Of a DNA stretch of 64,000 bases, positions 37,301 to 64,000 are shown piece by piece. This DNA is from Bacteroidetes bacterium RIFCSPLOWO2_12_FULL_35_15. Lineage in GTDB: Bacteria > Bacteroidota > Bacteroidia > 2-12-FULL-35-15. A program made the position numbers and the translations under genes. The notes below the pieces were generated by a model. The model saw nothing but the letters and a program-made list of their open reading frames with translations. It ran no database searches and had not been told where the DNA came from. The stretch is from contig MEPB01000006.1 in the NCBI GenBank assembly GCA_001769385.1, forward strand, positions 24,182-88,181, in the 5' to 3' direction. Every line of letters starts with the position of its first letter. The stretch's first letter is position 1.

Positions 37301-40300
37301 AGTAGACTTTTCGATTGATAAATTATTATAGATAACAGGTGCTACAATTTGCCTTTCTGTTCCCGAATAAATAACAGTACCCGACCCTGCCGTAAAGCTT
37401 CCTGAAGTATAGTTGTAAGCTCCATTTATTGTAAGTGTCCCGTTTCCTGTAAAATTAATCGAACCGGTCGCACTTTGGTTTAGATCATTATTAATCATAA
37501 CAGAGCCGTTTCCAATTTTCAATTGAATATCATGGCCATTCGTTCCATCACTTAAATTAATGTTTGTTCCTATTATTAATGCATTTGAGGAGACATCAAT
37601 CACATGCGATGCAGGATCAATCCAATTTCCATTCACAGCTCCAAGAATGCTCAGTGAACCACTGATTAAGGTAAGTGTGCTTGCCTGTATACTTCCATAT
37701 TGCAAAACACTAACTGTTCTGGTTGAGCTAATTGTCGGATTATAGATAAAGCCCGTTTGCCCTATTTGTGCCTCATCCGTTGACGTTGGAATTCTGTTTG
37801 CCATTGATTCTCCTGAAATGGTAGTCCAGTTTGCGGCATTTTCCCATGCTGAACTTACAGAACCATTCCAACGGACAACATTTTTTATCCCGGCCAATGT
37901 CCACCTTCCTTCAAGAGCTGAAATTCCGGTTTTTTCTACAAAATTTAAGGCTGTATCTTTTGTAGTATAACCAATACTATCCCAAACATTACTATCCGAA
38001 TTGTAATTAAATTCGTTTAAGTTAGGTTCGTTCACAGCATTCAATTCGTTGTGGTCGTAATGCAGACGCAATGTGGAGGAGCTGAAAGTCCCTGCAGGTA
38101 TTGTAATGTTATATTCCCGGTTAAGACATTCTTGTCCGACATTAAAGTCGGGTACATTTGCAAGAGTTACAACCTCTGTAACAGAAGTCAGAGATACTGA
38201 TGGGTTGATGAATGTAATTGCATTTTGTGCACTTTCAAAATAATAAGCAGTGCCGTCAATAAAAGTATGATTGTGAGTGATTGTACCAATAATAATACCT
38301 GCACCAATGCGTGTGTCTGTAATTGTTACCGCATTAGTTCCTGTCTGTATGGTGCCATTCGTTACTGTTAAATTTGTAACTGTAATATTATTTGACAGTG
38401 TCAAATTAATGAATAAGCTATTTTTATTTACGATAAGATTATTAAATTCGGTTGCTCCCGCTATCGTTGCCGAATTGCCTCCTAACAATTGAATGGTTGA
38501 TGTTCCATCAGTAAAAGTTCCGCTGTTTGTAAAATGGCGATATATGGTATGTGTGAAAGAGGAAGCATCGAATGTCACACCGAAATTAATTGTAAAGTCA
38601 TTGTTAATTATAAGCTCATCAATAGGAGTTTTTATGCCTCCGTTGGAAAGTATAAGGTTGTGATAAGTAGTATTAACAAGTGACTGAGCTGTAGGTGAAT
38701 TATACACCACTGTGTTAGGAATATTTGTAGTTACATTTAATGTCCCGGTTTTAGTGAATACATTAGCAATACATAAAGTTGCATTACTTCCAAGAAGTAC
38801 TGTTTTGGTTGCGTTAATCGTAACATTAAATAAATTTGCTGTTCCCGAAAGAGCTGTAGTTCCATTCATTGTTGTTGTTCCTGCCGTTGCAGTAAAGCTT
38901 CCTGAACTTGCTACAGAAAGATTCGACAATAAAGTATAATTACTTGCTGTTGAAATTGTTCCCAAAATACTTAAAGCAAAAAAAGTAATTGCGCCATTTC
39001 CTGAAATTGTTTTTGTAACACCATTAAAAGTGATTGTTCCTGCACTTGCAGCAAATGAATTATTTACACTAAGGTTCCCGGAAATAGTAATGTTTGATGC
39101 TGTCGTTATGCTGCCTGTAATGATGCAATTATATAATAAAAGACCAGGGCCTGATATTGTTTTTCCTGTTCCCGACATTGTAAGTGAGCCTCCTGTTGAA
39201 TGAATGAAATTTGCGGTAAGGGAGGTACTTATATTCCCGGAGACATTTATGGAAGTATTTCCGGAAGCATTTATTCCTGTGGCTGTGAAAGCAAGATTAT
39301 AGAAATTATTCGTTCCTGTACCACTCAGTACAACATTTGTTCCTGAAAATGTAACTGTGGAAGTGTTTCCATTAAAAGTTCCGGAATTGTTCCAATTGCT
39401 GATGAATTTATGAGTAAATGTCCCTCCATCAAATGTGGATGCAGCATCCAGAACCACGTTCCCGTTTACAGTAATGTTTTGTGCAGCAAAAAATGTAACA
39501 CTTGTACCTGTCCCGACAGTGCTTGTTAAATTTCCTGATATTGTGATTGCCGTGGCAGGCATGGTTTTTACAACAGCTCCTGTAGTGCCGCTAAATGATA
39601 GGTTTCCATAAGCTGCTGCTAAAACAATTTGATTGTTTCCGTAATACTCTACCGTACTGGTAGTGGAAAGGGAAATGGTTGAATAATTGCTTGGGAAAGT
39701 AGTTGTTCCTCCGATTCTAAGTTTAGCGCCAGCAGCAACAATAACTGAACCTCCTGTATTAGTATTGCCTCTGTTAGCAGTGAAAGTTAGTAAATCAAGT
39801 GTCCCGGCATCAATATATATCTTTCCTGAAGAGGAGGAGGAAGAATTTAAAGCAGGTAAATTTCCTGTTAAAGTTTTTGTCATACCCCCGCTAACGTGCA
39901 GATAGCCATATGTTAGGATATTTGTAATGTTTTGGTTTATAACAGAGGATGCGTAGTTTACAGTACTTGTAGCATTTAATGTGATTGTACCTGACAATGA
40001 ATAGTTATTTGTGAAATTTAGTGTTTTGACGAATATGACTCCAGCTGAATTCACCGTTAATGTTGCGTTACCGGACACTAAACAGGAAGCTGTTGGGTCG
40101 AGTGAACCATTGACAGTTAGCATAGTATTGATTGAAATATTGTTTGCTAATGTTACTAAACTTCCCGCATTAATAGCTAATCGTTGAAAAGCCGTTACTC
40201 CGGTAAGGGTTTGTGTTGTTCCCAAAAAAGTCACAACCGCAGTTGCATTGCTTGCAGAGTAGGTGCCTGCATTGTTCCAATTCCCTTTAATTGAAATGGA

Positions 40301-40633
40301 TGTTCCTGCACCTGTATGCAAAATTGTTCCATTGCCACCAATAGTAACATTACCCGAAATAGTAATGTTTTTTGTAACCGTCAATGTGGATACTTTCGTA
40401 CTACTTCCAATAATTAAGGACTTACAATTAACAGGGGTAGTTAATGAAGGTTGAAAAGATCCTGTGAAATTGGCATCCCCAATTATAGCATCAACAGTAG
40501 AATTAGGTATTCCTGCTGTCCAGTTAGAAGGAGAGCTCCAGTTTGTGCTGACAGTACCTTTCCAGGAAGTTTGAGCGGTGATATTACTCATTATCATGAG
40601 TAAAAGCGATATACTATAAATGAACTTTTTCAT
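34382..40633 (-). CDS. Giant secreted repetitive beta-rich surface protein with a T9SS C-terminal sorting domain.
   Basis: N-terminal signal peptide MKKFIYSISLLLMIMSNITAQ, a 2083-aa body made of Gly/Asn/Thr/Ser repeats, and a C-terminal ~80-aa Por/T9SS CTD-like segment (...SGVYMVTATSKNEIIHKRLVVK). Confidence 0.75.
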   Translation of the reverse strand: MKKFIYSISLLLMIMSNITAQTSWKGTVSTNWSSPSNWTAGIPNSTVDAIIGDANFTGSFQPSLTTPVNCKSLIIGSSTKVSTLTVTKNITISGNVTIGGNGTILHTGAGTSISIKGNWNNAGTYSASNATAVVTFLGTTQTLTGVTAFQRLAINAGSLVTLANNISINTMLTVNGSLDPTASCLVSGNATLTVNSAGVIFVKTLNFTNNYSLSGTITLNATSTVNYASSVINQNITNILTYGYLHVSGGMTKTLTGNLPALNSSSSSSGKIYIDAGTLDLLTFTANRGNTNTGGSVIVAAGAKLRIGGTTTFPSNYSTISLSTTSTVEYYGNNQIVLAAAYGNLSFSGTTGAVVKTMPATAITISGNLTSTVGTGTSVTFFAAQNITVNGNVVLDAASTFDGGTFTHKFISNWNNSGTFNGNTSTVTFSGTNVVLSGTGTNNFYNLAFTATGINASGNTSINVSGNISTSLTANFIHSTGGSLTMSGTGKTISGPGLLLYNCIITGSITTASNITISGNLSVNNSFAASAGTITFNGVTKTISGNGAITFFALSILGTISTASNYTLLSNLSVASSGSFTATAGTTTMNGTTALSGTANLFNVTINATKTVLLGSNATLCIANVFTKTGTLNVTTNIPNTVVYNSPTAQSLVNTTYHNLILSNGGIKTPIDELIINNDFTINFGVTFDASSFTHTIYRHFTNSGTFTDGTSTIQLLGGNSATIAGATEFNNLIVNKNSLFINLTLSNNITVTNLTVTNGTIQTGTNAVTITDTRIGAGIIIGTITHNHTFIDGTAYYFESAQNAITFINPSVSLTSVTEVVTLANVPDFNVGQECLNREYNITIPAGTFSSSTLRLHYDHNELNAVNEPNLNEFNYNSDSNVWDSIGYTTKDTALNFVEKTGISALEGRWTLAGIKNVVRWNGSVSSAWENAANWTTISGESMANRIPTSTDEAQIGQTGFIYNPTISSTRTVSVLQYGSIQASTLTLISGSLSILGAVNGNWIDPASHVIDVSSNALIIGTNINLSDGTNGHDIQLKIGNGSVMINNDLNQSATGSINFTGNGTLTINGAYNYTSGSFTAGSGTVIYSGTERQIVAPVIYNNLSIEKSTERAKINFPTVINGNLSTGIGGELAISDTLTVAGNISIGSNTNFIEFGARINLMGSWTNNGTFTTNSGSVNFNGTTDQFVNANTFNILIVNKPSGSLSLSGNLIINSDLLISKGTMDLAMYNANRSNPGGTFMLDSASYLKVGGATNFPTNFITNVMHASSTVEFNGTMHQHILATEFGNLLISNGGSNKKHFHLRTVLIKGDLTINSGATIYCDSNIVTVYGNLTNNGTYSTYKSTLILSGISKTFSGNATLDNLVASGGSYTFLNSNISISGDFFVDTLSSVNWGSSTVSFNGDCTNKGTLFSSGAVTFTGTRVQTLQLINAMTSTSTGVINFNGTVAPILNSNTPPIFATVNINNTAGITASEPWSVYGSFTVGAGATFNGGSLKHTFYGNFTNNGNVISNYKIYFMPQPPFSAEATIRLDDVGGSFLSTGEVEFGGTEPITILDNAPVFNFLEISNTNTTGITPPNSWNLQDVLIGTGSTFNAGTSLSHTIAGNFTNNGVFNGNTSTVTFTGNPVVVDGTGIGNYYNLTIATGADLTYNKPLTIGGNLILNGNLTTTGQVVTFFSSTPATINSTLGSITFDHLEQNKPGSTTTLLIPLTVTGSLTMTDGIINTTSTNILTLTDNATSTAGTNTSFVNGPMKKIGNQAFVFPIGKGSTWARLGIGTPSDATDAFTAQYFDTPYVDFLSMATIPAPVLNNVSIVEYWTCDRNTGTSDVPVQLFWEDAARSFINNYSSDLNVAHWNGSAWENAGQSSITAASPGNITSDVMNSFSPFTFGSRIGLNPLPIKLLTFDAKLNSSKTVDLAWSTASEKNNDYFTIEKSIDAANFESVITIDGAGTSTNTLYYSEVDLNPYAGTSYYRLKQTDYDGNRNYSNIVSIDYKKAGTSVNIFPNPNDGNGFNILLTGNENEEILVVLYDATGQEVYSKIITKTTDQTITAIDPLTRLSSGVYMVTATSKNEIIHKRLVVK

Positions 40634-48351: not shown

Positions 48352-48453
48352 ATCTACGAAATACGAATGGGTACGAATATACGAAAACGATAAAATGATG
48401 ATCTACGAAATACGCCCTTCGACAAACTCAGGGTGACTACGAATATACGAATG
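48352..48453. repeat. TACGAAT heptamer repeat array (intergenic).
   Basis: ctacgaaatacgaatgggtacgaatatacgaaaacg...atctacgaaatacg...gactacgaatatacgaatg. Confidence 0.7.
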
Positions 48454-48603
48454 AAAAAAAATAATTTAAATATTGAATGATTTGCGTTAGGGATAGCAGC
48501 GGAAATCCTTTTGAGAGGAACGAGCAAAAGATTGAAGCGAATAGCCCGACCCGCAGGGTAACGCCCAAAATAGAATAATAAGATTATTTAAAAAATTATA
48601 AAT

Positions 48604-49014
48604 ATGCAGCATACCACAATTTTACCGGATGGTTGGCCAACACCAAAAGGATATTCCAATGGAATACTTGCAGCAAAAGGCAGAGTACTTTTTTTAGCTG
48701 GTCAGGTAGGTTGGACCCCTGAAGAAAAATTCGCAAGCGATAAACTGATCCCACAGTTTGAACAAGCATTAAAAAATATTGTTGCTATTGTAAAACAAGC
48801 AGGTGGAAAACCGGAAGATATTTGCAAGATGACTTGTTTCTGCAAAGACAGAGCACAATATTTAGAAAGCAGAAGAGAGTTAGGAGCTATCTGGAAAAAT
48901 ATCATGGGAAAACATTATCCCTGCATGAGTATGATTTTCGTGGTGGATTTGTTGGATCATCCTGCATTAATCGAGATTGAAGCTACAGCAGTTATTCCTA
49001 CTAATAACGAATAA
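48604..49014 (+). CDS. RidA/YjgF/TdcF-family protein.
   Basis: 136 aa, YjgF-like. Its stop codon lies within a TACGAAT-type repeat (aacgaaTAAacgaattacgaATG). Confidence 0.7.
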   Translation: MQHTTILPDGWPTPKGYSNGILAAKGRVLFLAGQVGWTPEEKFASDKLIPQFEQALKNIVAIVKQAGGKPEDICKMTCFCKDRAQYLESRRELGAIWKNIMGKHYPCMSMIFVVDLLDHPALIEIEATAVIPTNNE

Positions 49015-49025
49015 ACGAATTACGA

Positions 49026-49439
49026 ATGAGAGTTGTGTTAAAAAAAGAAAATTTGTTATATCCTGAACTATCTTTTCAGGTTGTAGGAGTTTTATTTGAA
49101 GTAAGTAATACATTAGGATATGGCTATCTGGAAAAATATTATCAAAAAGCAATTGCAGCATTACTTAAAAAATCAAATATAAATTTTAAGGAACAGGTTA
49201 AAGTTGAAGTAATAATTGGAGATGAAATTATAGCAGAAGGTCGTGCGGATTTCATAATTGATGAAAAAATTATTTTGGAAATTAAAAAAGGTGATTCATT
49301 CCGGAAAGATAATATTGATCAATTGCACAGTTATTTAAAAATGACCGGAATGGAGCTTGGCATCCTTGCGAATTTTACATCAAAAGGATTACTTTATAAA
49401 AGAATCGTAAATATTCGTAATTCACAAATTCGTAATTAG
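49026..49439 (+). CDS. GxxExxY-family protein.
   Basis: GYGYLEKYY motif; its C-terminal residues and stop are encoded by the ATTCGTAA repeat. Confidence 0.7.
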   Translation: MRVVLKKENLLYPELSFQVVGVLFEVSNTLGYGYLEKYYQKAIAALLKKSNINFKEQVKVEVIIGDEIIAEGRADFIIDEKIILEIKKGDSFRKDNIDQLHSYLKMTGMELGILANFTSKGLLYKRIVNIRNSQIRN

Positions 49440-49546
49440 TAGAACGATGGACTTAAATATTCGTAATTAGTAAATTCGTAATTAGTAGAACGATGGACTT
49501 AAATATTCGTAATTAGTAAATTCGTAATTAGTAGAACGATGGACTT
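49409..49546 (+). repeat. 3 x 46-bp tandem repeat built from ATTCGTAATTAGTA units. Each copy ends in ...agaacgATGGACTT, and the third copy supplies the start codon of the acyl-CoA dehydrogenase.
   Basis: Copies at 49409-49454, 49455-49500 and 49501-49546. Copies 2 and 3 are identical and copy 1 differs at 3 positions. Copies 1 and 2 encode only the mini-ORF MDLNIRN*. Confidence 0.8.
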
Positions 49547-50675: not shown

Positions 50676-50826
50676 CTACGAATTACGAATTAAACGAATT
50701 ACGAATGAGATTTTCCAATTTATCAGATGTTTACGTTAGTATTTCATCTTTATTCGTAATTCGGCCATTCGTAATTAGTAGTGTAATATATTCACTTTTA
50801 TTTGCAGTTTGTTCATTCGTAATAAA
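50676..50826. repeat. TACGAAT/ATTCGTA inverted heptamer array (intergenic).
   Basis: ctacgaattacgaattaaacgaattacgaatgag ... ttattcgtaattcggccattcgtaattagt ... cattcgtaata. Confidence 0.7.
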
Positions 50827-50837
50827 TAGGTAAAAAT

Positions 50838-52238
50838 ATGAGTAATATAAAATCATACGGAATCGCATTACCTCATTTCAGAATCGAGGATACTATTCTT
50901 CACCCCAAAGGAAAGAAAGGCATAACAAAGTCAGTTTGTTTTTCTGATGAAGATTTGATCACACTTGCTTTTCAGGCAGCATCAAACTGTTTGGATGTCA
51001 GTTCGAGCGGAGTCGAGAACTCAAATCTCAAATCTAATATTGATGCAATTCTCTTTGCCTCATCAACTCCGGTTTTTAAAAATCGGTATCATGCTTCTTT
51101 TCTTGCTGATCAATTAGGTTTACTTCATGGCATTTTAGCGCTTGATCTTATAAATTCAGCCCGAAGTGGAACGGATGCCCTGTTATTGGCAAATACATTA
51201 ATTGATTTCGGTAAATACAAAAATATTTTGGTGCTTGCTTCTGATGTTCATTTTCCTTCAATCGGAAAAGAGCTTTCAACTCCCTTCGGTCATGCTGCCT
51301 GTGCAATTTTGATAGGTAATGAAAAAGGTATTGCAGAATTTACTTCAGCCAAATCATACAGTTCTTCACTGGCTGAAGAATTTTCTTACAAAGGAAATAC
51401 TATTCAGTATGATCCTCGATTTAGCCGTGATGCAGGATTTAAAGCAAACCTGACTTCTGCACTTAAAAGTTTTGCGTCTAACCCAAAATCGATTGATGCT
51501 GTAATTTTAAATTCTCTTTATGCTCGAATGGCAGGAGGGATTTTTGCGAAAGCTGGTTTTGAAGAAACACAATTTGCAATGGACACCCTTTCTTCCAAAC
51601 TAGGAAATACAGGTGCTGTTCATGCGTTACTGCTGTTAGTGAATGAAATTGAAAACGAAAAGAAAACCATCTTACTTGCAGATTACACAAACGGAACAAA
51701 CTTTTTTGAAATAAAAAATCAAGGTTCCAATTCTGAAAAAGTACTGCAAGAGCAATTGAAAAATTTCGAATTAATTAATTCTTATCAGGATTATTTATTG
51801 TTGCGCAAAACAGGAAATTTCAATTCAGCAAAATACGAAACCAAAGAAATGTTTTCTTCTGAAATGATGCAGGAACGTGAGAAAGACACCTTGCAATATC
51901 TGAAAGGTTTGAAATGCGATAAGTGCGGAACCATTTATTATCTGAAATCTACTCGATGTAAAAATTGTAAAGAAGAAAATTTTTCAGATGTTCAATTATC
52001 AAAAACTGGAATTGTTTATACCTTAACAAGCGAACATTATTTTCCAAGTTCATTCCCTCCAATTCATATGTTGGTAATTGATCTGGATGGTGGGGGAAGG
52101 GTTACAGTTCAACAAACTGATACCATGTATCCTGAAAAAAATAAAATAAAGATCGGTTCGAAAGTGAAATTGGTTTTACGAAAAATGATTGAGAATGATA
52201 TGAAACCAAATTATTTCTGGAAGGCTGTAAATCTATGA
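50838..52238 (+). CDS. HMG-CoA-synthase-like (thiolase-fold) protein fused to a C-terminal DUF35-type Zn-ribbon/OB-fold domain.
   Basis: N-terminal SYGIALPHFRIEDT and a C-terminal zinc ribbon CDKCGTIYYLKSTRCKNCKEE. Confidence 0.5.
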   Translation: MSNIKSYGIALPHFRIEDTILHPKGKKGITKSVCFSDEDLITLAFQAASNCLDVSSSGVENSNLKSNIDAILFASSTPVFKNRYHASFLADQLGLLHGILALDLINSARSGTDALLLANTLIDFGKYKNILVLASDVHFPSIGKELSTPFGHAACAILIGNEKGIAEFTSAKSYSSSLAEEFSYKGNTIQYDPRFSRDAGFKANLTSALKSFASNPKSIDAVILNSLYARMAGGIFAKAGFEETQFAMDTLSSKLGNTGAVHALLLLVNEIENEKKTILLADYTNGTNFFEIKNQGSNSEKVLQEQLKNFELINSYQDYLLLRKTGNFNSAKYETKEMFSSEMMQEREKDTLQYLKGLKCDKCGTIYYLKSTRCKNCKEENFSDVQLSKTGIVYTLTSEHYFPSSFPPIHMLVIDLDGGGRVTVQQTDTMYPEKNKIKIGSKVKLVLRKMIENDMKPNYFWKAVNL

Positions 52239-52240
52239 AA

Positions 52241-52297
52241 TACGAATTGATACGAATAGAATCTACGAATACGAATTAGTACGAATATACGAATAGA
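52241..52297. repeat. TACGAAT heptamer array (intergenic).
   Basis: aaatacgaattgatacgaatagaatctacgaatacgaattagtacgaatatacgaatag. Confidence 0.7.
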
Positions 52298-53509: not shown

Positions 53510-53630
53510 TTACGAAAATACGAATGAATACTAATCTCCGAATAAAGTAAAATGCAAAATCCGAAATTAAAAATTGGATTAATTCGATTCATAAATTCGT
53601 ACAATTGGTATTTCGTAAAGCAAACTAAAT
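53510..53630. repeat. TACGAAA/TACGAAT and ATTCGTA/TTTCGTA heptamer array (intergenic).
   Basis: ttacgaaaatacgaatgaatac...aattcgattcataaattcgtacaattggtatttcgtaaag. Confidence 0.65.
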
Positions 53631-57052: not shown

Positions 57053-60000
57053 ATGCAAAAACAGACCATTGACATATTAACTTCTTTCAGTAAAGCACAA
57101 AAACGTTGTGTTATGGGAAATGTTGCTGTTGCTCGTGGAGCGATTGAAGCAGGAGTGAATGGTGTATTCTCCTATCCGGGAACACCTTCCACAGAAATTT
57201 CAGAAGTATTTAATTTTGTCAATGATTTTCAAAGTAAAAAAGATTTTCAAAAAAAATATCCTAAACAAACCGAACATAAAATTTATTTTGAATACAGCAT
57301 CAATGAAAAAATTGCATTAGAAAAAGCAATTGCTTATTCCATAGGAAATAAAAGTGCCATGTGTGTGATGAAAAATGTGGGGATGAATGTGGCCTCGGAT
57401 GCTTTGATGAGCGTTACCTATCAAACAATTATTGCTCCTTTGGTTATTGTTCTTTGCGATGATCCGGGCTGTTTTTCTAGTTCAAACGAACAGGATTCTC
57501 GCTATTGGGGAAAATTTGCTTCTGTCCCAATGTTTAATCCGGCATCTCCGGAAGATGCATTATTAATGACAAAAACAGCTTTCTCGCTTTCTGCTCAATT
57601 ACGATTACCGGTTATTGTTCGTATGACTACTCGTGTAGATCATTCTCGCGGAGTGATTTCGTATGGTAATTTTGATCCGAAAGAAACAATTGCTCATTTT
57701 GATAGATTACCTCAACATATTAATATTCCTGCACGTACAGCAACCGCTCATAAAACATTACTAGATAAACTAGATTCGGAACTTTTTGTTATACTGAATA
57801 AAAAGTTCAATACTGTTTTTCCATCTGTTAAAACCGGGAAGGAGCAAATGGGAATTATTGCGAGTGGTGTTTCTTTGGTGTATGCTCAGGAATTGTTATC
57901 AAGAAACAGCGAAACAAAAAATATTTCTGTTCTAAAAGTTGGTGTGATTCATCCTTTCCCTGAAAAAGATATTTTAACGTTTTTAAAGAAAGGAATTAAA
58001 AGAGTTTTAATTCTTGAAGAACTGGATCCACTCCTTGAAAATGATGTTCGAGTGATCATTCAAAAAAATAAAATTGATTGCGAAGTTATTGGGAAAGGAT
58101 ATTCAGGATTAAATGTTACGGGTGAATATACGTTGGATATTATTAGAAATGTTCTTGAAAAATTTACATCTTATTCTTTATGCAAAAAAGAAAATCAACC
58201 ATTACCTGATGTCGATAAACTCCTTGCCAGTTTACCGCCTCGTCCGCCAACACTTTGTGCAGGATGTCCTCATCGGGCAACATTCTATGCACTTAAATTA
58301 GCTGTCCCTCGGGAGAATGGAAATATTATTTTGTGTGGAGACATCGGCTGTTCAGGATTGGGAGCATTACCTCCAATTCAAATGATCGATACGATCAACC
58401 ACATGGGAATGAGTGTATCGATGGCACAAGGACTTTCGGAGGCAATGCATTTGAAACCAGAACAAGGGAAAGTTATAGCGATGCTGGGTGATGGAACATT
58501 TTTTCATTCCGGTGTGGCATCTTTGATCAATGCAATTTATACACGTGCAAATATTACGGTTATTATTTTTGATAACAGAACTATTGGAATGACGGGCCAT
58601 CAGGATCATCCCGGTGCCACTCAACATTCAAAATATCAACAGATTGATATTTATTCGTTGGTAAAAGGATTGGGAGTGGAATGTGTTGAAACCATGATGC
58701 CTTTTAATTTGAAGGATACTTATGAGAAAGTAAAAAATGCAATTAACCATATAGGGGTTTCTGTTTTAATTGCAAGGGCTCCTTGTATTTTCCTTCCTGA
58801 ATTTAAAGATGGGGCACTCGTTAGAAAGAGTTTGCATGTTGACCAAAGCAAATGCAATACCTGTTTTAATCATTGCGATGTAAGTATTTCATGTTCAAAA
58901 GAATATTCGGGGAAAGAAAGTCTTGATCGCGCAAGAGCAAAAGTTGTTGCAAAAGTACAGGTGTATGCCCAGGAACAATTATGCCCGGCAAACATTTGTA
59001 ATCACGGATTTTTTAATTCTATCCTAAGTAAAAATTATAAATCAGCTTTAGAAATTGTTAGGGATAAAATGTTGTTTGCCGCTGTATGTGGGGATGTTTG
59101 CCATAAACCGTGTGAATCGTTGTTCAGAACTGAGAATGGGAAATCTGTTCCGATAAAAAAATTAAAAAACTTTGTTAGCAACATTGAAGATAATTTCAAT
59201 GATTTTTCGAAACAAATTTCACGAGCAAAAGTTTCAAATAAGAAGAATAAAAAGATTGCTGTTATCGGTTCAGGTCCTGCAGGGTTAAGTTCCGCATATG
59301 ATCTTGTTCAGGCAGGATATGATGTAACTGTTTTTGAGAAGAACGCTTCCGCTGGGGGAATGATCCGTTTTGTTATTCCTGATTTCAGGATGAACAAAAA
59401 TAATATGGACAAGGAAATGAATGTGCTGAAGGAAATGGGTGTTCGTTTTAAATTTAATTCAATTCTTGGAAAAAATATTACGATAGAAAAACTTTCAAGC
59501 GATTACGATGCGGTTATTCTGGCAATAGGAATGTGGGATTCAGCGACATTAGAGATTGTTGAAAAAAATGTTTCTATTGGCAAAAAGTTTGACGCGATCA
59601 ATTTCTTACGTTCCTACAATGAAAAGAATCTTAAAATAAAATCAGGTTCAACAATATTTATTGTTGGTGGTGGAAATAGTGCCATGGATGCTGCAAGAGC
59701 TGCAAAAAAATTCAACAAAAAAAATAATGTAATAGTTTCTTGCATTGAAAAGACAGATTCAATGCCGGCATTTGTGCAGGAAGTAGAAGAAGCAAAAAGG
59801 GAAGGCATCCGCATTATTGATGGTTGTTTTGCAGATTTGATCGTTGAAAAAAAGAATAAAATATCGATCTCATTAAAATCGTTTGATAAGAAGAAATATC
59901 TTGAAACTATAAAAGCTGATTATATAATTACAGCAATTGGCCAACGTGGCGATGCATCTGCATTAAATGAAAAATTAAGCCTGGATACAAATTTCAGAGT

Positions 60001-60415
60001 TAAGTCTGCAAGCAAGTACAAAAATGTTTTTTTTGCTGGTGATATTGCTTCAGGTAATCATATTTCTTTGATTGGTGCTATTGGCAGTGGAAAGAAAGCT
60101 GCAGTGAATGCAAGAAAGTTATTGGAAGGATATAAGTTTGAATACGAAGGAGAGTTTGCTTTAGATAAGTTGTCGAATTCTGAGAATGGAAATAAAAATA
60201 TACTTAAGAAATTTGAAACCATAGATTTTGAAATTGAAAATGTTCATGACTTTAATTTATATCAACCTTGCGCCAAGTGTGATCATTGTATCGAAAATTT
60301 TGGTTGTCCGGCTATGGTAAAAGTGAATGGAAAAATAATAATTGATGATAAACGCTGTACCCGTTGTGGTTTGTGTATAGATGTTTGTCCGAATGGAGCT
60401 ATTGATTGGGTTTAA
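57053..60415 (+). CDS. iorA: Indolepyruvate/2-oxoacid:ferredoxin oxidoreductase alpha subunit fused to a GltD-like FAD/NAD(P)-binding domain and a C-terminal 4Fe-4S ferredoxin.
   Basis: IorA motifs (CAGCPHRATFYALK and a TPP-binding region) within residues ~1-650. Then KKIAVIGSGPAGLSSAYDL...VGGGNSAMDAARAA (glutamate synthase small-chain-like), ending in CTRCGLCIDVCPNGAI. Confidence 0.7.
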   Translation: MQKQTIDILTSFSKAQKRCVMGNVAVARGAIEAGVNGVFSYPGTPSTEISEVFNFVNDFQSKKDFQKKYPKQTEHKIYFEYSINEKIALEKAIAYSIGNKSAMCVMKNVGMNVASDALMSVTYQTIIAPLVIVLCDDPGCFSSSNEQDSRYWGKFASVPMFNPASPEDALLMTKTAFSLSAQLRLPVIVRMTTRVDHSRGVISYGNFDPKETIAHFDRLPQHINIPARTATAHKTLLDKLDSELFVILNKKFNTVFPSVKTGKEQMGIIASGVSLVYAQELLSRNSETKNISVLKVGVIHPFPEKDILTFLKKGIKRVLILEELDPLLENDVRVIIQKNKIDCEVIGKGYSGLNVTGEYTLDIIRNVLEKFTSYSLCKKENQPLPDVDKLLASLPPRPPTLCAGCPHRATFYALKLAVPRENGNIILCGDIGCSGLGALPPIQMIDTINHMGMSVSMAQGLSEAMHLKPEQGKVIAMLGDGTFFHSGVASLINAIYTRANITVIIFDNRTIGMTGHQDHPGATQHSKYQQIDIYSLVKGLGVECVETMMPFNLKDTYEKVKNAINHIGVSVLIARAPCIFLPEFKDGALVRKSLHVDQSKCNTCFNHCDVSISCSKEYSGKESLDRARAKVVAKVQVYAQEQLCPANICNHGFFNSILSKNYKSALEIVRDKMLFAAVCGDVCHKPCESLFRTENGKSVPIKKLKNFVSNIEDNFNDFSKQISRAKVSNKKNKKIAVIGSGPAGLSSAYDLVQAGYDVTVFEKNASAGGMIRFVIPDFRMNKNNMDKEMNVLKEMGVRFKFNSILGKNITIEKLSSDYDAVILAIGMWDSATLEIVEKNVSIGKKFDAINFLRSYNEKNLKIKSGSTIFIVGGGNSAMDAARAAKKFNKKNNVIVSCIEKTDSMPAFVQEVEEAKREGIRIIDGCFADLIVEKKNKISISLKSFDKKKYLETIKADYIITAIGQRGDASALNEKLSLDTNFRVKSASKYKNVFFAGDIASGNHISLIGAIGSGKKAAVNARKLLEGYKFEYEGEFALDKLSNSENGNKNILKKFETIDFEIENVHDFNLYQPCAKCDHCIENFGCPAMVKVNGKIIIDDKRCTRCGLCIDVCPNGAIDWV

Positions 60416-61347: not shown

Positions 61348-61854
61348 ATGAGTAAAAAGAAAAAATTAGTTGTTCAGAATGTGGAAGTAACTTTTATTTT
61401 GAATGGAAAAAAGGTTACAAAACAAATTCGCCCTTCTCTGTTATTGATTGATTTTATTCGGGACGAATTATCTCTGGCTGGTACTAAACCTGGCTGTTTA
61501 GAAGGTGAATGTGGTGCTTGTTCTGTATTGATTGATGGTGCAGCAGTAAATTCATGTATGTATCTGGCAATAAATATTCATGGTAAAAATCTAACGACTA
61601 TTGAAGGATTATCTGATGTTAATGGCTTGGATCCGGTTCAGGATTCTATGATAAAACATGGCGCTGTGCAGTGTGGATTCTGTTCTTCCGGTATGACAAT
61701 GAGCATTAAATCGATGCAGATCAAATATAAAAAAGATAAAAAGAAGCCATCAAAAGAGGAGATAAAAAAAGGTTTGGAAGGGAACTTATGCAGATGTACC
61801 GGATATGTGAAAATTATTGAAGCAGCAGAAGCAGTGATAAATAAGGTTAAATAG
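61348..61854 (+). CDS. (2Fe-2S)-binding small subunit of a xanthine dehydrogenase/CO dehydrogenase-family molybdoenzyme.
   Basis: GCLEGECGACSV, CGFCSSGM and LCRCTGY motifs. Confidence 0.85.
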   Translation: MSKKKKLVVQNVEVTFILNGKKVTKQIRPSLLLIDFIRDELSLAGTKPGCLEGECGACSVLIDGAAVNSCMYLAINIHGKNLTTIEGLSDVNGLDPVQDSMIKHGAVQCGFCSSGMTMSIKSMQIKYKKDKKKPSKEEIKKGLEGNLCRCTGYVKIIEAAEAVINKVK

Positions 61855-61898: not shown

Positions 61899-64000
61899 AT
61901 GAGTAAAAAATTAAATGTAATTGGAACACCAATACCGAAGATAGATGCAGGTATTCGTATCACGGGAAAAGCGGTTTATGGTCAGGATGTAAAACTACCG
62001 GGAATGCTTCATGGTGCTATTCTTCGTGCTGAGTATCCATGCGCGGAATTTACAATTGATGTTTCTGCTGCAAGAAAATTGCCCGGAGTTATTGCTGTTA
62101 TTACAGCGGATGATATTGATTGCAATAACATTAGCTATAAAAAGGATCATCCGATATTAAAAAAAGGAGAAGTAAATTGTATTCGTGATGAAATAGCAGC
62201 TGTTGCCGCTGAAAGTAAAGAGATCGCTGAAAGAGCCATTAAACTTATCAAAGTAAAGTACAAAGAAAAGAAAGGGATTTATGATCCTTTCGATGCATTA
62301 AAGCCTAATGCTCCTCTTGTAAATAAATATTTGAAGGATAGTAAATTCGCGAAAAACATTTCTGATATTTTCTTCTACGAACATGGAAATCTGGAAGAAC
62401 AAAAAAAGAAAAGCGCTGTTATTATCAGCAAACGTTTCGTATTACCTCGCGTAACACATTGTTGTATGGCAACAAGCAACATCACCGCTGATTATTCCTC
62501 TGTCACCAAACGCTTAACATTATATAGTTCAACACAAGTTCCGTTTTTATATCAACGCGACATGGCACATGCTTTGAAAATGAATGCCTCCGATATTCGT
62601 GTTATTCAAGTGGTGATCGGTGGCGGATTTGGAAGTAAATTAGATATGTATCCTTTTGAACCAATTGCTGCTATTCTTTCTATAAAAACAGGAAAGCCTG
62701 TTCAGATAATTTTTGACCGTGAAGAGGAATTTATTGCTTCACCTACGAGGCAGAATATGGTGATTGACTTAATAGCAGGGGCTGATAAAAATGGGAAATT
62801 CACTTTTCGTGATGTTACTATTGTAAAAGATAATGGTGCATTCACTTCCTGGGGCGCAACCACTCCTTTTGTAATGATGCAGACTTTTTCATCACTCTAT
62901 CAAATGCCTGCTTGTCGGTTTGAATCAAAAGCCGTTTATACAAATAATATTTCAGCAGGTTCTTTCCGTGGTTATGGGAATCCACAAGCTGCTTTCGCTA
63001 TCGAAAGTTGTATTGATCTGATGGCCGATAAATTAGGAATGGATAAAGCAGAAATTCGTTTGCTTAATGCAAATTATGCAGGTGAAATAACAGGACAAGG
63101 AATGCACTACGACACTTGCGGACATATAGAAGCCTTGAAAACCGTTATTGAAAAATCGGATTTACGAAATACAAATAAAGAAACTTTACGAAATACTAAT
63201 AAATACGAATCTACGAATAAAGAAAAAGAAACAGTCAACACAGATTCGTATATTCGAAAAAATCCGTATTTCGTAGATAATGTAGATAGATATAAGCGGG
63301 GAGTGGGAATTGCTTCGATGATGCATGTTGGGGGTGGTGCTAAAATTTATCGATCAGATGGTTGCGGAACTACCTTAAAATTGGATGATTACGGACATCT
63401 GACTTTAATTACAGGCTCGAGCGAGATCGGTCAGGGCTCCGAAACTGTTTTGGCAATGATGGCTTCAGAGGAACTTACAATTCCAATGAATAAAATAAAA
63501 GTTATTAATACGGATACGGATGTAAAGCCTTGGGATGTTGGGGTGCATGCATCCCGTACCAGTTTTGTAGCAGGGAATTCGGTGTTAGGTGCTGTTAAAA
63601 AATTAAAAGAAAAATTAAATCAAAAAGCTGCTGTACTTTTAAAATGTACGATTGAGAATTTGATCTATGAAAATGAAGAAATAAAAAATAGTGACGGAAG
63701 TAATTCTGTTCGAATAGAAAAAGTGGTTCGTGAAATGCATTTTGGAGGACAAAATGAGCTGTGTACGGTAAACCATTTTTATGAACCAACAAGTGATTTT
63801 CAGGATAAACAGTTCAAAGGAAATGTTTCAGGTACTTATGCATTTGCTGCGCAGTCAGCTGAAGTGGAAGTGGATACCTATACCGGAAATATTAAGGTAT
63901 TAAATATTCATGTTGCACAAGATGTGGGTAAAGTATTGAATCCACTAAACATCATGGGACAAATTGAAGGAGGTGTTTTGACTGGAGTGGGTTATGGAAT
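61899..64000 (+). CDS. Molybdopterin-binding large subunit of a xanthine dehydrogenase/aldehyde oxidase-family enzyme (3' end beyond the window). It contains an in-frame TACGAAT-repeat insertion.
   Basis: The product begins MSKKLNVIGTPIPKIDAGIRITGKAVYGQDVKLPGMLHGAILRAEYP. Typical MoCo-enzyme segments: RGYGNPQA, GSSEIGQG and VHASRTSFVAG. There is no stop through 64000. Confidence 0.85.
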   Translation, partial: MSKKLNVIGTPIPKIDAGIRITGKAVYGQDVKLPGMLHGAILRAEYPCAEFTIDVSAARKLPGVIAVITADDIDCNNISYKKDHPILKKGEVNCIRDEIAAVAAESKEIAERAIKLIKVKYKEKKGIYDPFDALKPNAPLVNKYLKDSKFAKNISDIFFYEHGNLEEQKKKSAVIISKRFVLPRVTHCCMATSNITADYSSVTKRLTLYSSTQVPFLYQRDMAHALKMNASDIRVIQVVIGGGFGSKLDMYPFEPIAAILSIKTGKPVQIIFDREEEFIASPTRQNMVIDLIAGADKNGKFTFRDVTIVKDNGAFTSWGATTPFVMMQTFSSLYQMPACRFESKAVYTNNISAGSFRGYGNPQAAFAIESCIDLMADKLGMDKAEIRLLNANYAGEITGQGMHYDTCGHIEALKTVIEKSDLRNTNKETLRNTNKYESTNKEKETVNTDSYIRKNPYFVDNVDRYKRGVGIASMMHVGGGAKIYRSDGCGTTLKLDDYGHLTLITGSSEIGQGSETVLAMMASEELTIPMNKIKVINTDTDVKPWDVGVHASRTSFVAGNSVLGAVKKLKEKLNQKAAVLLKCTIENLIYENEEIKNSDGSNSVRIEKVVREMHFGGQNELCTVNHFYEPTSDFQDKQFKGNVSGTYAFAAQSAEVEVDTYTGNIKVLNIHVAQDVGKVLNPLNIMGQIEGGVLTGVGYG
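63162..63275 (+). repeat. Intragenic TACGAAT/ATTCGTA heptamer array, in frame.
   Basis: gatttacgaaatacaaataaagaaactttacgaaatactaataaatacgaatctacgaataaag...cagattcgtatattcgaaaaaatccgtatttcgtag. It translates in the gene frame as ...SDLRNTNKETLRNTNKYESTNKEKETVNTDSYIRKNPYFVDNV... Confidence 0.7.

What the first reader, a model, noticed from the sequence alone, without database searches (positions are those of the whole stretch)
63162..63275. The same heptamer repeat sits in-frame inside the xanthine-dehydrogenase-family large-subunit gene
A 110-bp stretch inside the MoCo-subunit ORF contains forward copies (tttacgaaatac, tttacgaaatact, atacgaatctacgaataaag) followed by inverted copies (gattcgtatattcgaa, ccgtatttcgtag). 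It keeps the reading frame and encodes a low-complexity insert: SDLRNTNKETLRNTNKYESTNKEKETVNTDSYIRKNPYFVDNV. Conserved segments lie before and after it (…GQGMHYDTCGHIEAL and …RYKRGVGIASMMHVGGG). This suggests the intergenic repeat has invaded a surface loop, or linker region, of an enzyme without disrupting it, a rare case of repeat exaptation. Alternatively the gene is a recently inactivated pseudogene.
Basis: seen in the sequence. Interest (0 to 1): 0.6.

Follow-up and report, generated by a model that had tools for sequence, protein, structure and literature searches.

The report
Palindromic repeat translated inside an enzyme linker
A roughly 115-bp hairpin-forming repeat, the same kind that fills nearby intergenic spacers and flanks a small nuclease gene, has landed in frame in the flexible linker between two domains of a molybdenum enzyme, which appears still to be functional.

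Summary
Window 63159-63287 (+) is 43 codons built from TACGAAT-type repeats: forward copies, an A-rich loop, then inverted copies. It lies in an intact xanthine-dehydrogenase-family Mo-subunit gene that starts at 61899. The insert sits between the Pfam domains MoCoBD_1 and MoCoBD_2, exactly where nicotinate dehydrogenase is naturally split into two chains.

The nearest orthologues (96% and 93% identical elsewhere) have a 12-15-residue Lys-rich linker instead. The gene is not a pseudogene: dN/dS against the nearest orthologue is 0.07, the full 793-aa protein occurs identically on 5 contigs, and the operon is intact.

The repeat is a defined palindromic element of about 33-nt arms and a variable loop. 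It is mostly intergenic (67 of 73 copies). Its arm motif occurs in Bacteroidota and many Patescibacteria genomes. The same arms flank GxxExxY (PD-(D/E)XK) genes, including window 49026-49439, and did so in 47 of 73 loci chosen by protein similarity alone. I read the insert as a MITE/REPIN-like derivative of that unit; the nuclease's role in mobility is inferred.

The same linker carries this element, or an unrelated palindromic repeat, in other orthologue lineages. The behaviour resembles Rickettsia palindromic elements, but the element family appears undescribed. Exaptation is not shown.

The parts
61899..64000 (+). Host gene: the xanthine-dehydrogenase/CO-dehydrogenase-family molybdopterin-binding large subunit. 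700 aa lie in the window; the full-length protein is P0001, 793 aa.
   Evidence: Pfam finds Ald_Xan_dh_C at 22-125, MoCoBD_1 at 157-391 and MoCoBD_2 at 464-699. The best solved relative is 4-hydroxybenzoyl-CoA reductase alpha, 1rm6, E 6e-82. The full gene is present in L001 and L002.
63159..63287 (+). Repeat-derived linker segment of 43 codons (DLRNTNKETLRNTNKYESTNKEKETVNTDSYIRKNPYFVDNVD). It occupies the place of the 12-15-residue Lys-rich linker seen in the closest orthologues.
   Evidence: Protein and DNA alignments with P0002 and P0003. It is the only stop-free sense frame of the element. pLDDT is below 50 for residues 423-462.
63161..63185 (+). Extra, partial copy of the left arm (TTTACGAAATACAAATAAAGAAAC).
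   Evidence: Read from the sequence, the alignment A2 and a weak profile hit at 63162-63177.
63186..63218 (+). Left arm of the palindromic element (TTACGAAATACTAATAAATACGAATCTACGAAT).
   Evidence: Arm-profile nhmmer hit with E 5e-9, the best in the window. It aligns with the copies in L006 and L008.
63219..63243 (+). A-rich loop of the element. Loops vary in length and sequence between copies.
   Evidence: Alignment A2 and the folds.
63244..63276 (-). Right arm, an inverted copy of the left arm (read on the + strand: ATTCGTATATTCGAAAAAATCCGTATTTCGTAG).
   Evidence: nhmmer hit on the minus strand with E 2.4e-6. It pairs with the left arm in the predicted hairpin: RNA -22 kcal/mol with z -4.1, DNA z -2.5.
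61348..61854 (+). [2Fe-2S] small subunit of the same enzyme. The FAD subunit lies downstream of the window.
   Evidence: Pfam Fer2_2. The operon layout is seen in L001.
49026..49439 (+). GxxExxY protein gene (PD-(D/E)XK fold). Its ATG is embedded in the last upstream heptamer (TACGAATG) and its 3' end runs into the inverted repeats.
   Evidence: TIGR04256 E 1e-28 and PF13366 E 4e-28. Flanking sequence read.
49003..49027 (+). Forward heptamer copies immediately upstream of the GxxExxY gene.
49405..49546 (-). Inverted heptamer copies downstream of the GxxExxY gene. They lie within a 46-bp unit repeated three times.
48354..48452 (+). Intergenic array of forward arm copies.
   Evidence: nhmmer E 2e-8.
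50676..50824 (.). Intergenic palindromic copy (forward copies, then inverted copies).
52234..52294 (+). Intergenic array of forward arm copies.
   Evidence: nhmmer E 9e-8.
53510..53618 (.). Intergenic palindromic copy with the same termini as the in-gene copy (TTTTACGAAAATACGAAT...GGTATTTCGTAAAG).

Best explanation
A non-autonomous, hairpin-forming repeat element (MITE/REPIN-like) entered the A-rich DNA that encodes the Lys-rich linker between the two molybdopterin-binding domains of this XDH-family large subunit. The element has arms of about 33 nt built from TACGAAT-type heptamers and a variable loop.

The element occupies the one sense frame without stop codons, and its length keeps the phase. 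It is therefore translated as a hydrophilic, disordered 43-residue loop that takes the place of the native 12-15-residue linker. The enzyme tolerates this because the site is a natural domain junction, one at which other family members are split into separate polypeptides.

Shown: the element's anatomy; its absence from sister orthologues; its position; purifying selection on the gene; the mainly intergenic location of the family; and the fact that the same arms flank GxxExxY PD-(D/E)XK genes.

Inferred: the short palindromes are derivatives of the arm-GxxExxY-arm unit; that nuclease mobilises them; and the element reached this allele either by direct insertion or by import of an element-bearing patch through recombination.
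For: 1. Anatomy. Alignment of the in-gene copy with copies in L006, L008 and the intergenic copy at 53.5 kb gives a common left arm TTTACGAAATACGAATAAAAACGAATCTACGAAT, a variable loop, and a right arm ACAGATTCGTAYATTCGTAATGATTCGKATTTCGTAA. These fold as long hairpins with z-scores of -4 to -7.7.

2. Lineage-specific. P0002 (96% identical outside the insert) and P0003 (93%) have short Lys-rich linkers.

3. Position. The insert lies between MoCoBD_1 and MoCoBD_2. NdhL of 3hrd aligns to query residues 1-420 and NdhM to 466-699. pLDDT is below 50 for residues 423-462.

4. The gene is alive. dN/dS is 0.07 overall (0.036 before the insert, 0.080 after) at dS 0.50. The identical 793-aa protein is on 5 contigs, and the small subunit, PALP, FAD subunit and aminotransferase genes are intact beside it.

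5. Frame. Only 1 of the 3 sense frames of the element is stop-free, and it is the frame in use.

6. A repeat family. Of 73 short palindromic copies in the fetched loci, 67 are intergenic.

7. Link to GxxExxY. All 7 GxxExxY genes in those loci are bracketed by forward arms on the left and inverted arms on the right, except that L084's right flank runs off the locus. Among 73 metagenome loci picked by GxxExxY protein similarity alone, 47 have at least 2 ACGAAW upstream and at least 2 WTTCGT downstream, against a background of 0.18 and 0.16 per 200 nt. The D...ExK catalytic motif is conserved in these proteins.

8. Expansion in this genome. In the syntenic contig of orthologue P0004 the operon's intergenic gaps are 0-18 bp. 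Here they are about 100-180 bp and filled with the repeats.

9. A permissive hotspot. The same linker carries this element in P0029, P0024 and P0089, and an unrelated palindromic repeat (GTCATTCCCGCGAAAGCGGGAATCC) in P0073. Five further orthologues (P0100, P0028, P0033, P0055, P0085) carry similar CHSRE-type peptides there; I confirmed the repeat at the DNA level only for P0073.
Against: - I found no target-site duplication at the junctions of 28 copies. The bases just outside the arms merely extend the palindrome.
- The native linker seems to be replaced rather than simply interrupted, which a clean transposition would not do.
- The right junction (…TTTCGTAGAT followed by the Arg codon of R[FY]K) is the same in the window and in P0029. 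At a second site in the gene, element-bearing alleles share flanking sequence across lineages. Recombination between alleles, rather than a fresh insertion here, may therefore explain how this copy arrived.
- No biochemical evidence shows that GxxExxY proteins act on these arms. Twenty-six of the 73 GxxExxY loci lack the two-sided pattern.
- In-frame copies were found only in this one gene family, so a general in-frame lifestyle like that of the Rickettsia elements is not shown.
- Expression of the full-length protein is untested.
Confidence: 0.8

Rival explanations
1. The insert-bearing linker arrived by homologous recombination (gene conversion, or homing-like co-conversion) from a diverged orthologous allele that already carried the element. 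In this view all linker copies descend from one old insertion, and no new insertion happened in this lineage.
For: - The window copy and the P0029 linker copy share the same right junction (GTATTTCGTAGATAG[A/G]). They also share an AAA[A/G]AT spacer and a similar loop, features not seen in the site-2 copies.
- P0001 has RYKRG just after the insert, whereas its clade has RFV[HR]G.
- Around site 2, P0029 is 79-80% identical in DNA to P0089 but about 61% to its 97%-identical sister P0083, so the gene is a mosaic there.
Against: - The left junctions differ between the lineages: KSD|LRN in the window and KSQYH|LRN in P0029.
- The carriers are only about 73% identical as proteins, so recombination between them would be inefficient.
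- The putative imported patch in the window is very short, and the divergence of its flanks from P0002 is modest.
- This rival changes the route of arrival, not the nature of the insert.
Confidence: 0.3
2. The gene is a recently inactivated pseudogene, or the insert destroys its function.
For: A 31-residue net insertion of low-complexity sequence in an enzyme. The mRNA can form a hairpin there.
Against: - The open frame runs through all 793 aa.
- dN/dS is 0.07, and 0.08 downstream of the insert.
- Family-invariant residues, including GGGFGSK and the C-terminal G-K-G-x-x-E-A segment, are retained.
- The identical protein was recovered in independent assemblies.
- The site is a natural split point of the family.
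Confidence: 0.04
3. The segment is an ordinary, fast-evolving low-complexity linker that resembles the intergenic repeat only by chance or by shared AT-rich composition.
For: The linker is hypervariable in length and sequence across orthologues.
Against: - The arm-profile hits at E 5e-9 and 2.4e-6 are the strongest in the window.
- The arms are inverted and pair with each other.
- Near-identical arms occur in other genes' spacers and in other phyla.
- Sister orthologues lack the segment.
Confidence: 0.01
4. The insert has been exapted: the extra loop, or the RNA/DNA hairpin inside the gene, is selected for a function such as linker lengthening, partner docking, translational pausing or regulation.
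For: - The element recurs in the same linker in several lineages.
- In the site-2 copies of P0029 and P0089 the arms are about 97% identical while the loops and flanks have diverged. This suggests either constraint or very recent origin.
Against: - The peptide has no homologues among 1.84 billion representative proteins. The profile search also returned nothing.
- The window copy is partly decayed: its middle helix is lost and its DNA fold z-score is only -2.5.
- Closest relatives do without the insert.
- Unrelated repeats occupy the same site in other lineages, which fits permissiveness rather than a specific function.
Confidence: 0.08

Closest known systems
Rickettsia palindromic elements (RPEs; Ogata et al. 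2000, as summarised in PMC10969869 and PMC3733652)
   Same: Both are palindromic repeats of about 100-150 bp found in intergenic DNA and also inserted in frame in genes for apparently functional enzymes. The result is an extra peptide segment at a structurally permissive position.
   Different: The arms consist of TACGAAT heptamers, unlike what I recall of published RPE sequences; no alignment with RPE sequences was made. The hosts are Bacteroidota and Patescibacteria rather than Rickettsia. In-frame copies are rare here (6 of 73, and the convincing ones all lie in one gene family), whereas nearly half of RPEs are in frame. These arms are associated with a specific nuclease gene.
REP/REPIN elements and REPtrons (RAYT genes flanked by their cognate REPs; PMC3733652)
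   Same: Two inverted repeat units form a hairpin of about 100 nt. Copies lie mostly in intergenic spacers within and between operons. A small gene is bracketed by the same repeats. Occasional copies lie inside genes, sometimes at the same site in orthologues.
   Different: The bracketed gene is a GxxExxY PD-(D/E)XK protein, not an HUH/Y1 tyrosine transposase. The arms are AT-rich multi-heptamer units rather than 20-40-bp GC-rich stem-loops. Some copies end in CTAC...GTAG, but many end in TTAC...GTAA.
[quoted passage not shown]
   Same: Small size, terminal inverted repeats, no coding capacity of its own, many copies, a larger gene-carrying relative with the same termini, and occasional in-frame fusions with host ORFs.
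   Different: No target-site duplication was detected. The gene-carrying relative encodes no recognised transposase.
Nicotinate dehydrogenase NdhL/NdhM (PDB 3hrd), a split Mo-subunit
   Same: It shows that the junction between MoCoBD_1 and MoCoBD_2 can be broken entirely without losing the enzyme. The chain break falls at the position of this insert.
   Different: There the junction is a gene split, not an insertion. It bears only on why the site is permissive.

Membership tests
Xanthine dehydrogenase / aldehyde oxidase / CO dehydrogenase family, Mo-binding large subunit (host gene) | The a/b hammerhead domain plus the two molybdopterin-cofactor-binding domains, in that order | tested here: met
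   PF01315 at 22-125, PF02738 at 157-391 and PF20256 at 464-699, all above their gathering scores.
Xanthine dehydrogenase / aldehyde oxidase / CO dehydrogenase family, Mo-binding large subunit (host gene) | Partner [2Fe-2S] and FAD subunits encoded alongside | tested here: met
   A Fer2_2 gene at 61348-61854. A FAD_binding_5/CO_deh_flav_C gene lies downstream in L001.
Xanthine dehydrogenase / aldehyde oxidase / CO dehydrogenase family, Mo-binding large subunit (host gene) | Conserved active-site and cofactor motifs retained | tested here: met
   GGGFGSK (residues 241-247) and the invariant C-terminal G746-K748-G749-E752-A753 are conserved across 28 orthologues. That E752 is the catalytic Glu is my inference from knowledge of the family.
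MITE | Short non-coding unit bounded by terminal inverted repeats | tested here: met
   Units of 62-180 bp with inverted arms of about 33 nt.
MITE | Multiple dispersed copies in a genome | tested here: met
   Six sites in the window. Twelve stretches of the single MAG GCA_036170475.1 matched.
MITE | Target-site duplication flanking each copy | tested here: not met
   No direct duplication at the 28 junction pairs listed. The flanking 2-3 nt are inverted complements that extend the palindrome.
MITE | A longer autonomous relative with the same termini that encodes the transposase | tested here: inconclusive
   A longer unit with the same termini exists and encodes a GxxExxY PD-(D/E)XK protein. 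That this protein moves the element is unproven.
REPtron / REPIN (RAYT system) | Repeats flank a RAYT (HUH/Y1 transposase) gene | tested here: not met
   The flanked gene is TIGR04256 / PF13366, a PD-(D/E)XK fold. I did not search the window for a RAYT gene.
REPtron / REPIN (RAYT system) | Two inverted repeat units forming a hairpin, located mainly in intergenic DNA | tested here: met
   Folds; 67 of 73 copies are intergenic.
Rickettsia palindromic elements | Sequence membership in one of the described RPE families, in Rickettsia genomes | not tested
   No alignment against RPE sequences was run. The hosts are Bacteroidota and Patescibacteria. From my own knowledge, the heptamer arms do not resemble published RPE consensus sequences.
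Rickettsia palindromic elements | In-frame insertion in genes that stay functional, at surface or permissive positions | tested here: met
   This shows the element behaves like an RPE, not that it is one.
Rfam RNA families | A match to a curated RNA family over the element | tested here: not met
   The only match at gathering threshold in the window is Flavo-1 at 48479-48555. Nothing matches at 63159-63287 or over the other arm copies.

The most novel reading that the evidence does not exclude
The TACGAAT-armed palindromes are the non-autonomous offspring of a so far unrecognised class of selfish element whose enzyme is the GxxExxY PD-(D/E)XK nuclease. This would be a REPtron analogue built on a different catalytic fold. 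It would be shared between Bacteroidota and the Patescibacteria, able to settle in frame in permissive protein linkers, and able to spread between alleles with co-conversion of flanking sequence, as homing elements do. That would give a first function to the large GxxExxY (TIGR04256 / PF13366) family, which is listed as 'unknown' in the literature I could search.
Probability: 0.35. Interest if true: 0.8.

Novelty: new variant of a known kind. Interest (0 to 1): 0.6.

Why it matters
In-frame settlement of selfish palindromic DNA in working enzymes is best known from Rickettsia. Here it is seen in free-living Bacteroidota, with a different element.

The case also gives a clean natural experiment. 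Sister alleles exist with and without the insert. One linker has been hit by at least two unrelated repeat families. That linker is a known split point of the fold. Together these mark a position where this enzyme family accepts large insertions, which is useful for protein engineering and for understanding how linkers evolve.

The wider lead is the tight, orientation-specific association of the arms with GxxExxY nuclease genes in two very distant phyla. It makes the function of that abundant, uncharacterised family directly testable: does the protein bind or cut these arms?

Tried and rejected
- **Peptide profile search.** A profile of the element-encoded peptides, searched against 5.8 billion proteins, found only 42 candidates sharing words and none scoring E <= 10. 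An earlier attempt failed because the query was 39 aa.
- **Full phmmer search.** The 43-aa insert searched against 1.84 billion representatives gave 0 hits at E <= 0.001. This shows the peptide is not a protein module, but a short low-complexity query has limited power.
- **Rfam.** At gathering thresholds no family covers the element.
- **Target-site duplications and target motif.** I inspected 28 junction pairs and found neither.
- **DNA for P0004.** This would have been a third empty-site allele, but the sample file was too large.
- **Literature on GxxExxY / PF13366 / TIGR04256.** Only incidental mentions, with function listed as unknown. A large MITE survey (PMC11602168) had nothing on Patescibacteria or intragenic copies.
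- **Loop as gene remnant.** I considered whether the element's loop is a remnant of the GxxExxY gene or of the native linker. No convincing similarity was seen by eye, so the question stays open.
- **Rejected readings.** Pseudogene, chance resemblance and assembly artefact are rejected; the reasons are given under the rival explanations.
- **Not done.** I did not run fold search on the model. Its mean pLDDT is 69, and the question of insert position was already answered by sequence alignment to solved structures.
Full report
**1. The observation**

There are two forward copies of TTACGAAATAC (63162 and 63186) and two of TACGAAT (63204 and 63212). The inverted copies follow: ATTCGTA at 63244 and GTATTTCGTAG at 63266-63276.

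The ORF starts at ATG 61899 and stays open to the end of the window.

The motif is strongly over-represented. TACGAAT occurs 38 times against 9.0 +/- 3.0 in shuffles, and no shuffle reached 38. A profile built from arm sequences puts its best hit in the whole window inside this gene, at 63186-63218 (E 5e-9). The inverted partner is at 63276-63244 (E 2.4e-6). All other significant hits fall in the intergenic spacers between 48354 and 53618.

**2. The host gene and the position of the insert**

The protein has the a/b-hammerhead domain, MoCoBD_1 (157-391) and MoCoBD_2 (464-699). A [2Fe-2S] subunit gene lies just upstream. Its best solved relative is 4-hydroxybenzoyl-CoA reductase alpha, followed by CO dehydrogenases.

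The repeat-derived residues 421-463 lie between the two cofactor-binding domains. In the split nicotinate dehydrogenase (3hrd), chain NdhL aligns to query residues 1-420 and chain NdhM to 466-699. The insert therefore sits exactly where this fold can be cut into two polypeptides.

An AlphaFold2 model has a mean pLDDT of 69. It gives pLDDT below 50 for residues 423-462, between a confident helix (409-419) and a confident strand (465-477).

**3. The insert is lineage-specific and the gene is alive**

The database holds the identical full-length protein, P0001 (793 aa), and many orthologues of about 760-770 aa. In the alignment, P0002 has EKS-KKKSENKKDKNP-RF, P0003 has EKS-GNKDDNSVKPKDKNS-RF, and P0001 has 43 residues in that place. 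Outside the insert P0002 is 96% identical to P0001 and P0003 is 93% identical.

At the DNA level the flanks align up to the boundaries. The native 36-45 nt are replaced by 129 nt.

P0001 is encoded on 5 contigs, including ENA ERZ27254759 (88 kb) and Logan SRR2090162. In those contigs the operon is intact: an IorA-like fusion, POR, the small subunit, the large subunit, a PALP enzyme, the FAD subunit and an aminotransferase.

Nei-Gojobori dN/dS against P0002 is 0.070 at dS 0.50. It is 0.036 upstream and 0.080 downstream of the insert. The pseudogene alternative is therefore rejected.

**4. What the repeat is**

I aligned the in-gene copy with in-gene copies from orthologues (L006, L008) and with the intergenic copy at 53.5 kb. 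The alignment shows a defined element:
- a left arm, TTTACGAAATACGAATAAAAACGAATCTACGAAT;
- an A-rich loop of variable length;
- a right arm, ACAGATTCGTAYATTCGTAATGATTCGKATTTCGTAA, which is the imperfect reverse complement of the left arm.

The copies fold as long three-segment hairpins. As RNA they give z -5.5 to -7.7 for the L006 and L008 copies and -4.1 for the window copy. As DNA they give z -4.6 to -5.8, and -2.5 for the window copy.

The window copy is partly decayed and carries an extra partial left arm at 63161-63185. Of the three sense frames of the element only one lacks stop codons, and it is the frame in use.

**5. Distribution and the link to GxxExxY genes**

Of these, 76 are from Patescibacteria of many classes, 36 from Bacteroidota, 2 from Gammaproteobacteria MAGs and 2 from unclassified bacteria. 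Several lie on contigs longer than 100 kb.

In these loci I found 73 short palindromic copies, forward arms followed by inverted arms. Sixty-seven have no spanning ORF. The in-ORF cases are the XDH-family genes (the window, L006 twice, L008 and L066) and one doubtful 157-aa ORF in L044.

In one Saccharibacteria locus (L050) the two arms are about 400 bp apart and enclose a small ORF. The same arrangement exists in the window, where ORF 49026-49439 is a GxxExxY protein (TIGR04256 E 1e-28; PF13366 PDDEXK_3 E 4e-28). In both L050 and the window the ATG is embedded in the last heptamer, TACGAATG.

All 7 GxxExxY genes in the fetched loci have forward arms on the left flank. Six also have inverted arms on the right; L084's right flank runs off the locus.

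Those loci had been chosen by the arm pattern, so I repeated the test on loci chosen only by protein similarity. Of 73 metagenome loci with adequate flanks, 47 have at least 2 ACGAAW upstream and at least 2 WTTCGT downstream. The background is 0.18 and 0.16 per 200 nt. The D...ExK catalytic signature is conserved in these proteins.

The architecture is that of a REPtron: a gene bracketed by the repeats that are also scattered through the genome (PMC3733652). The difference is that the enzyme has a PD-(D/E)XK fold rather than being an HUH transposase. The literature I could search lists PF13366 as of unknown function with multiple inter-phylum transfers (PMC3424549). Nothing describes these arms.

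That the nuclease mobilises the arms is an inference, not a result.

**6. Recurrence in the same gene**

Among the 120 best orthologues, the linker carries the TACGAAT element in P0001, P0029, P0024 and P0089. The last two retain only left-arm copies. Inserts of 8 or more residues occur at the linker in 15 of the 120 sequences. Six of these (P0073, P0100, P0028, P0033, P0055, P0085) carry peptides such as CHSRESGNP or RFRGNDN.

In P0073 the DNA behind those peptides is a different palindromic repeat: GTCATTCCCGCGAAAGCGGGAATCC together with its inverted partner.

A neighbour-joining tree places the TACGAAT carriers in three terminal lineages, and the sisters of each lack the insert. P0002 is 96% identical to P0001, P0083 is 97% identical to P0029, and P0069 and P0079 are about 90% identical to P0024 and P0089.

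P0029 and P0089 also carry a full element at a second site near residue 600. P0024, which is 98% identical to P0089, does not, and neither does P0083.

Around that second site the genes are mosaic. P0029 is 79-80% identical in DNA to P0089 but about 61% to P0083. Elsewhere P0029 is 86-97% identical to P0083. The arms of the two site-2 copies differ at one base each, while their loops differ widely.

This pattern fits either transfer of element-bearing patches between alleles or repeated site-specific entry. I cannot tell which. It also leaves open whether the window copy was inserted in this lineage or imported. The window copy shares its right junction and some arm variants with the P0029 linker copy.

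**7. Local context**

In the syntenic contig of orthologue P0004 the operon's intergenic gaps are 0-18 bp. In the window they are about 100-180 bp and are occupied by the repeats. All copies in the 64-kb window lie within about 14 kb of the GxxExxY gene. This is consistent with local spread.

**8. Comparison with known systems, and verdict**

The behaviour matches Rickettsia palindromic elements (in-frame, tolerated; PMC10969869) and intragenic REPs. The element is not a member of those families, for three reasons:
- it is found in Bacteroidota and Patescibacteria rather than Rickettsia, and its heptamer arms do not resemble what I recall of RPE or REP sequences, though I made no direct alignment;
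- it has no detectable target-site duplication;
- its associated gene is of a different kind.

The encoded peptide has no protein homologues, so exaptation is unsupported.

I file it as a new variant of a known kind. The GxxExxY association is the part most worth following up.

Noticed in passing
window 48479-48555 (+): A Flavo-1 RNA motif (RF01705, 51.8 bits against a gathering score of 42). It lies directly after the forward arm array at 48354-48452 and before a RidA-like gene at 48604-49014. It supports a Bacteroidota origin for the window.
   Followed up: no
window 49408-49546: A 46-bp unit repeated three times (96% matches). Each unit contains two inverted heptamers plus TAGAACGATGGACTT, which is the ribosome-binding region, ATG and first codons of the acyl-CoA dehydrogenase gene that starts at 49539. 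The junction between the right arm and the downstream gene start has therefore been duplicated twice.
   Followed up: partly
window 49026-49439 (+): The GxxExxY ORF lacks the usual stop after ...KRIVN[LI]. It reads 7 codons further into the inverted repeats (IRNSQIRN).
   Followed up: partly
L126 8966-9070 (orthologue P0073): An unrelated GC-rich palindromic repeat (GTCATTCCCGCGAAAGCGGGAATCC with inverted partners) is translated in the same interdomain linker (CHSRESGNP...RFRGNDN). No other copy occurs in the 20 kb fetched. Similar peptides occur in P0100, P0028, P0033, P0055 and P0085.
   Followed up: partly
L006 11766-11880 and L008 4397-4514 (near residue 600 of the orthologues): A second in-frame insertion site for the same element lies in a loop of MoCoBD_2. 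Nucleotide identity is mosaic around it: element-bearing alleles from different lineages resemble each other more than their own sisters.
   Followed up: partly
Genome loci L009-L124: Near-identical arms of about 30 nt occur in Bacteroidota and in many Patescibacteria classes (Saccharibacteria, Parcubacteria, Moranbacteria, Terrybacteria, Staskawiczbacteria, Sungiibacteriota and others), plus two Gammaproteobacteria MAGs. This implies transfer between phyla.
   Followed up: partly
window 57053-60415 (+): A 1120-aa fusion protein lies immediately upstream of the POR and XDH-family genes. It combines an indolepyruvate-oxidoreductase-like TPP domain, a pyridine-nucleotide-disulfide-oxidoreductase (GltD-like) domain and ferredoxin domains. 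The fusion is conserved in the orthologous operons.
   Followed up: no
window 34382-40633 (-): A 2083-aa ORF. I did not examine it.
   Followed up: no
L044 4354-4426: A short palindromic copy lies inside a 157-aa open frame in a Saccharibacteria contig. It could be a second kind of in-frame host or a spurious ORF.
   Followed up: no
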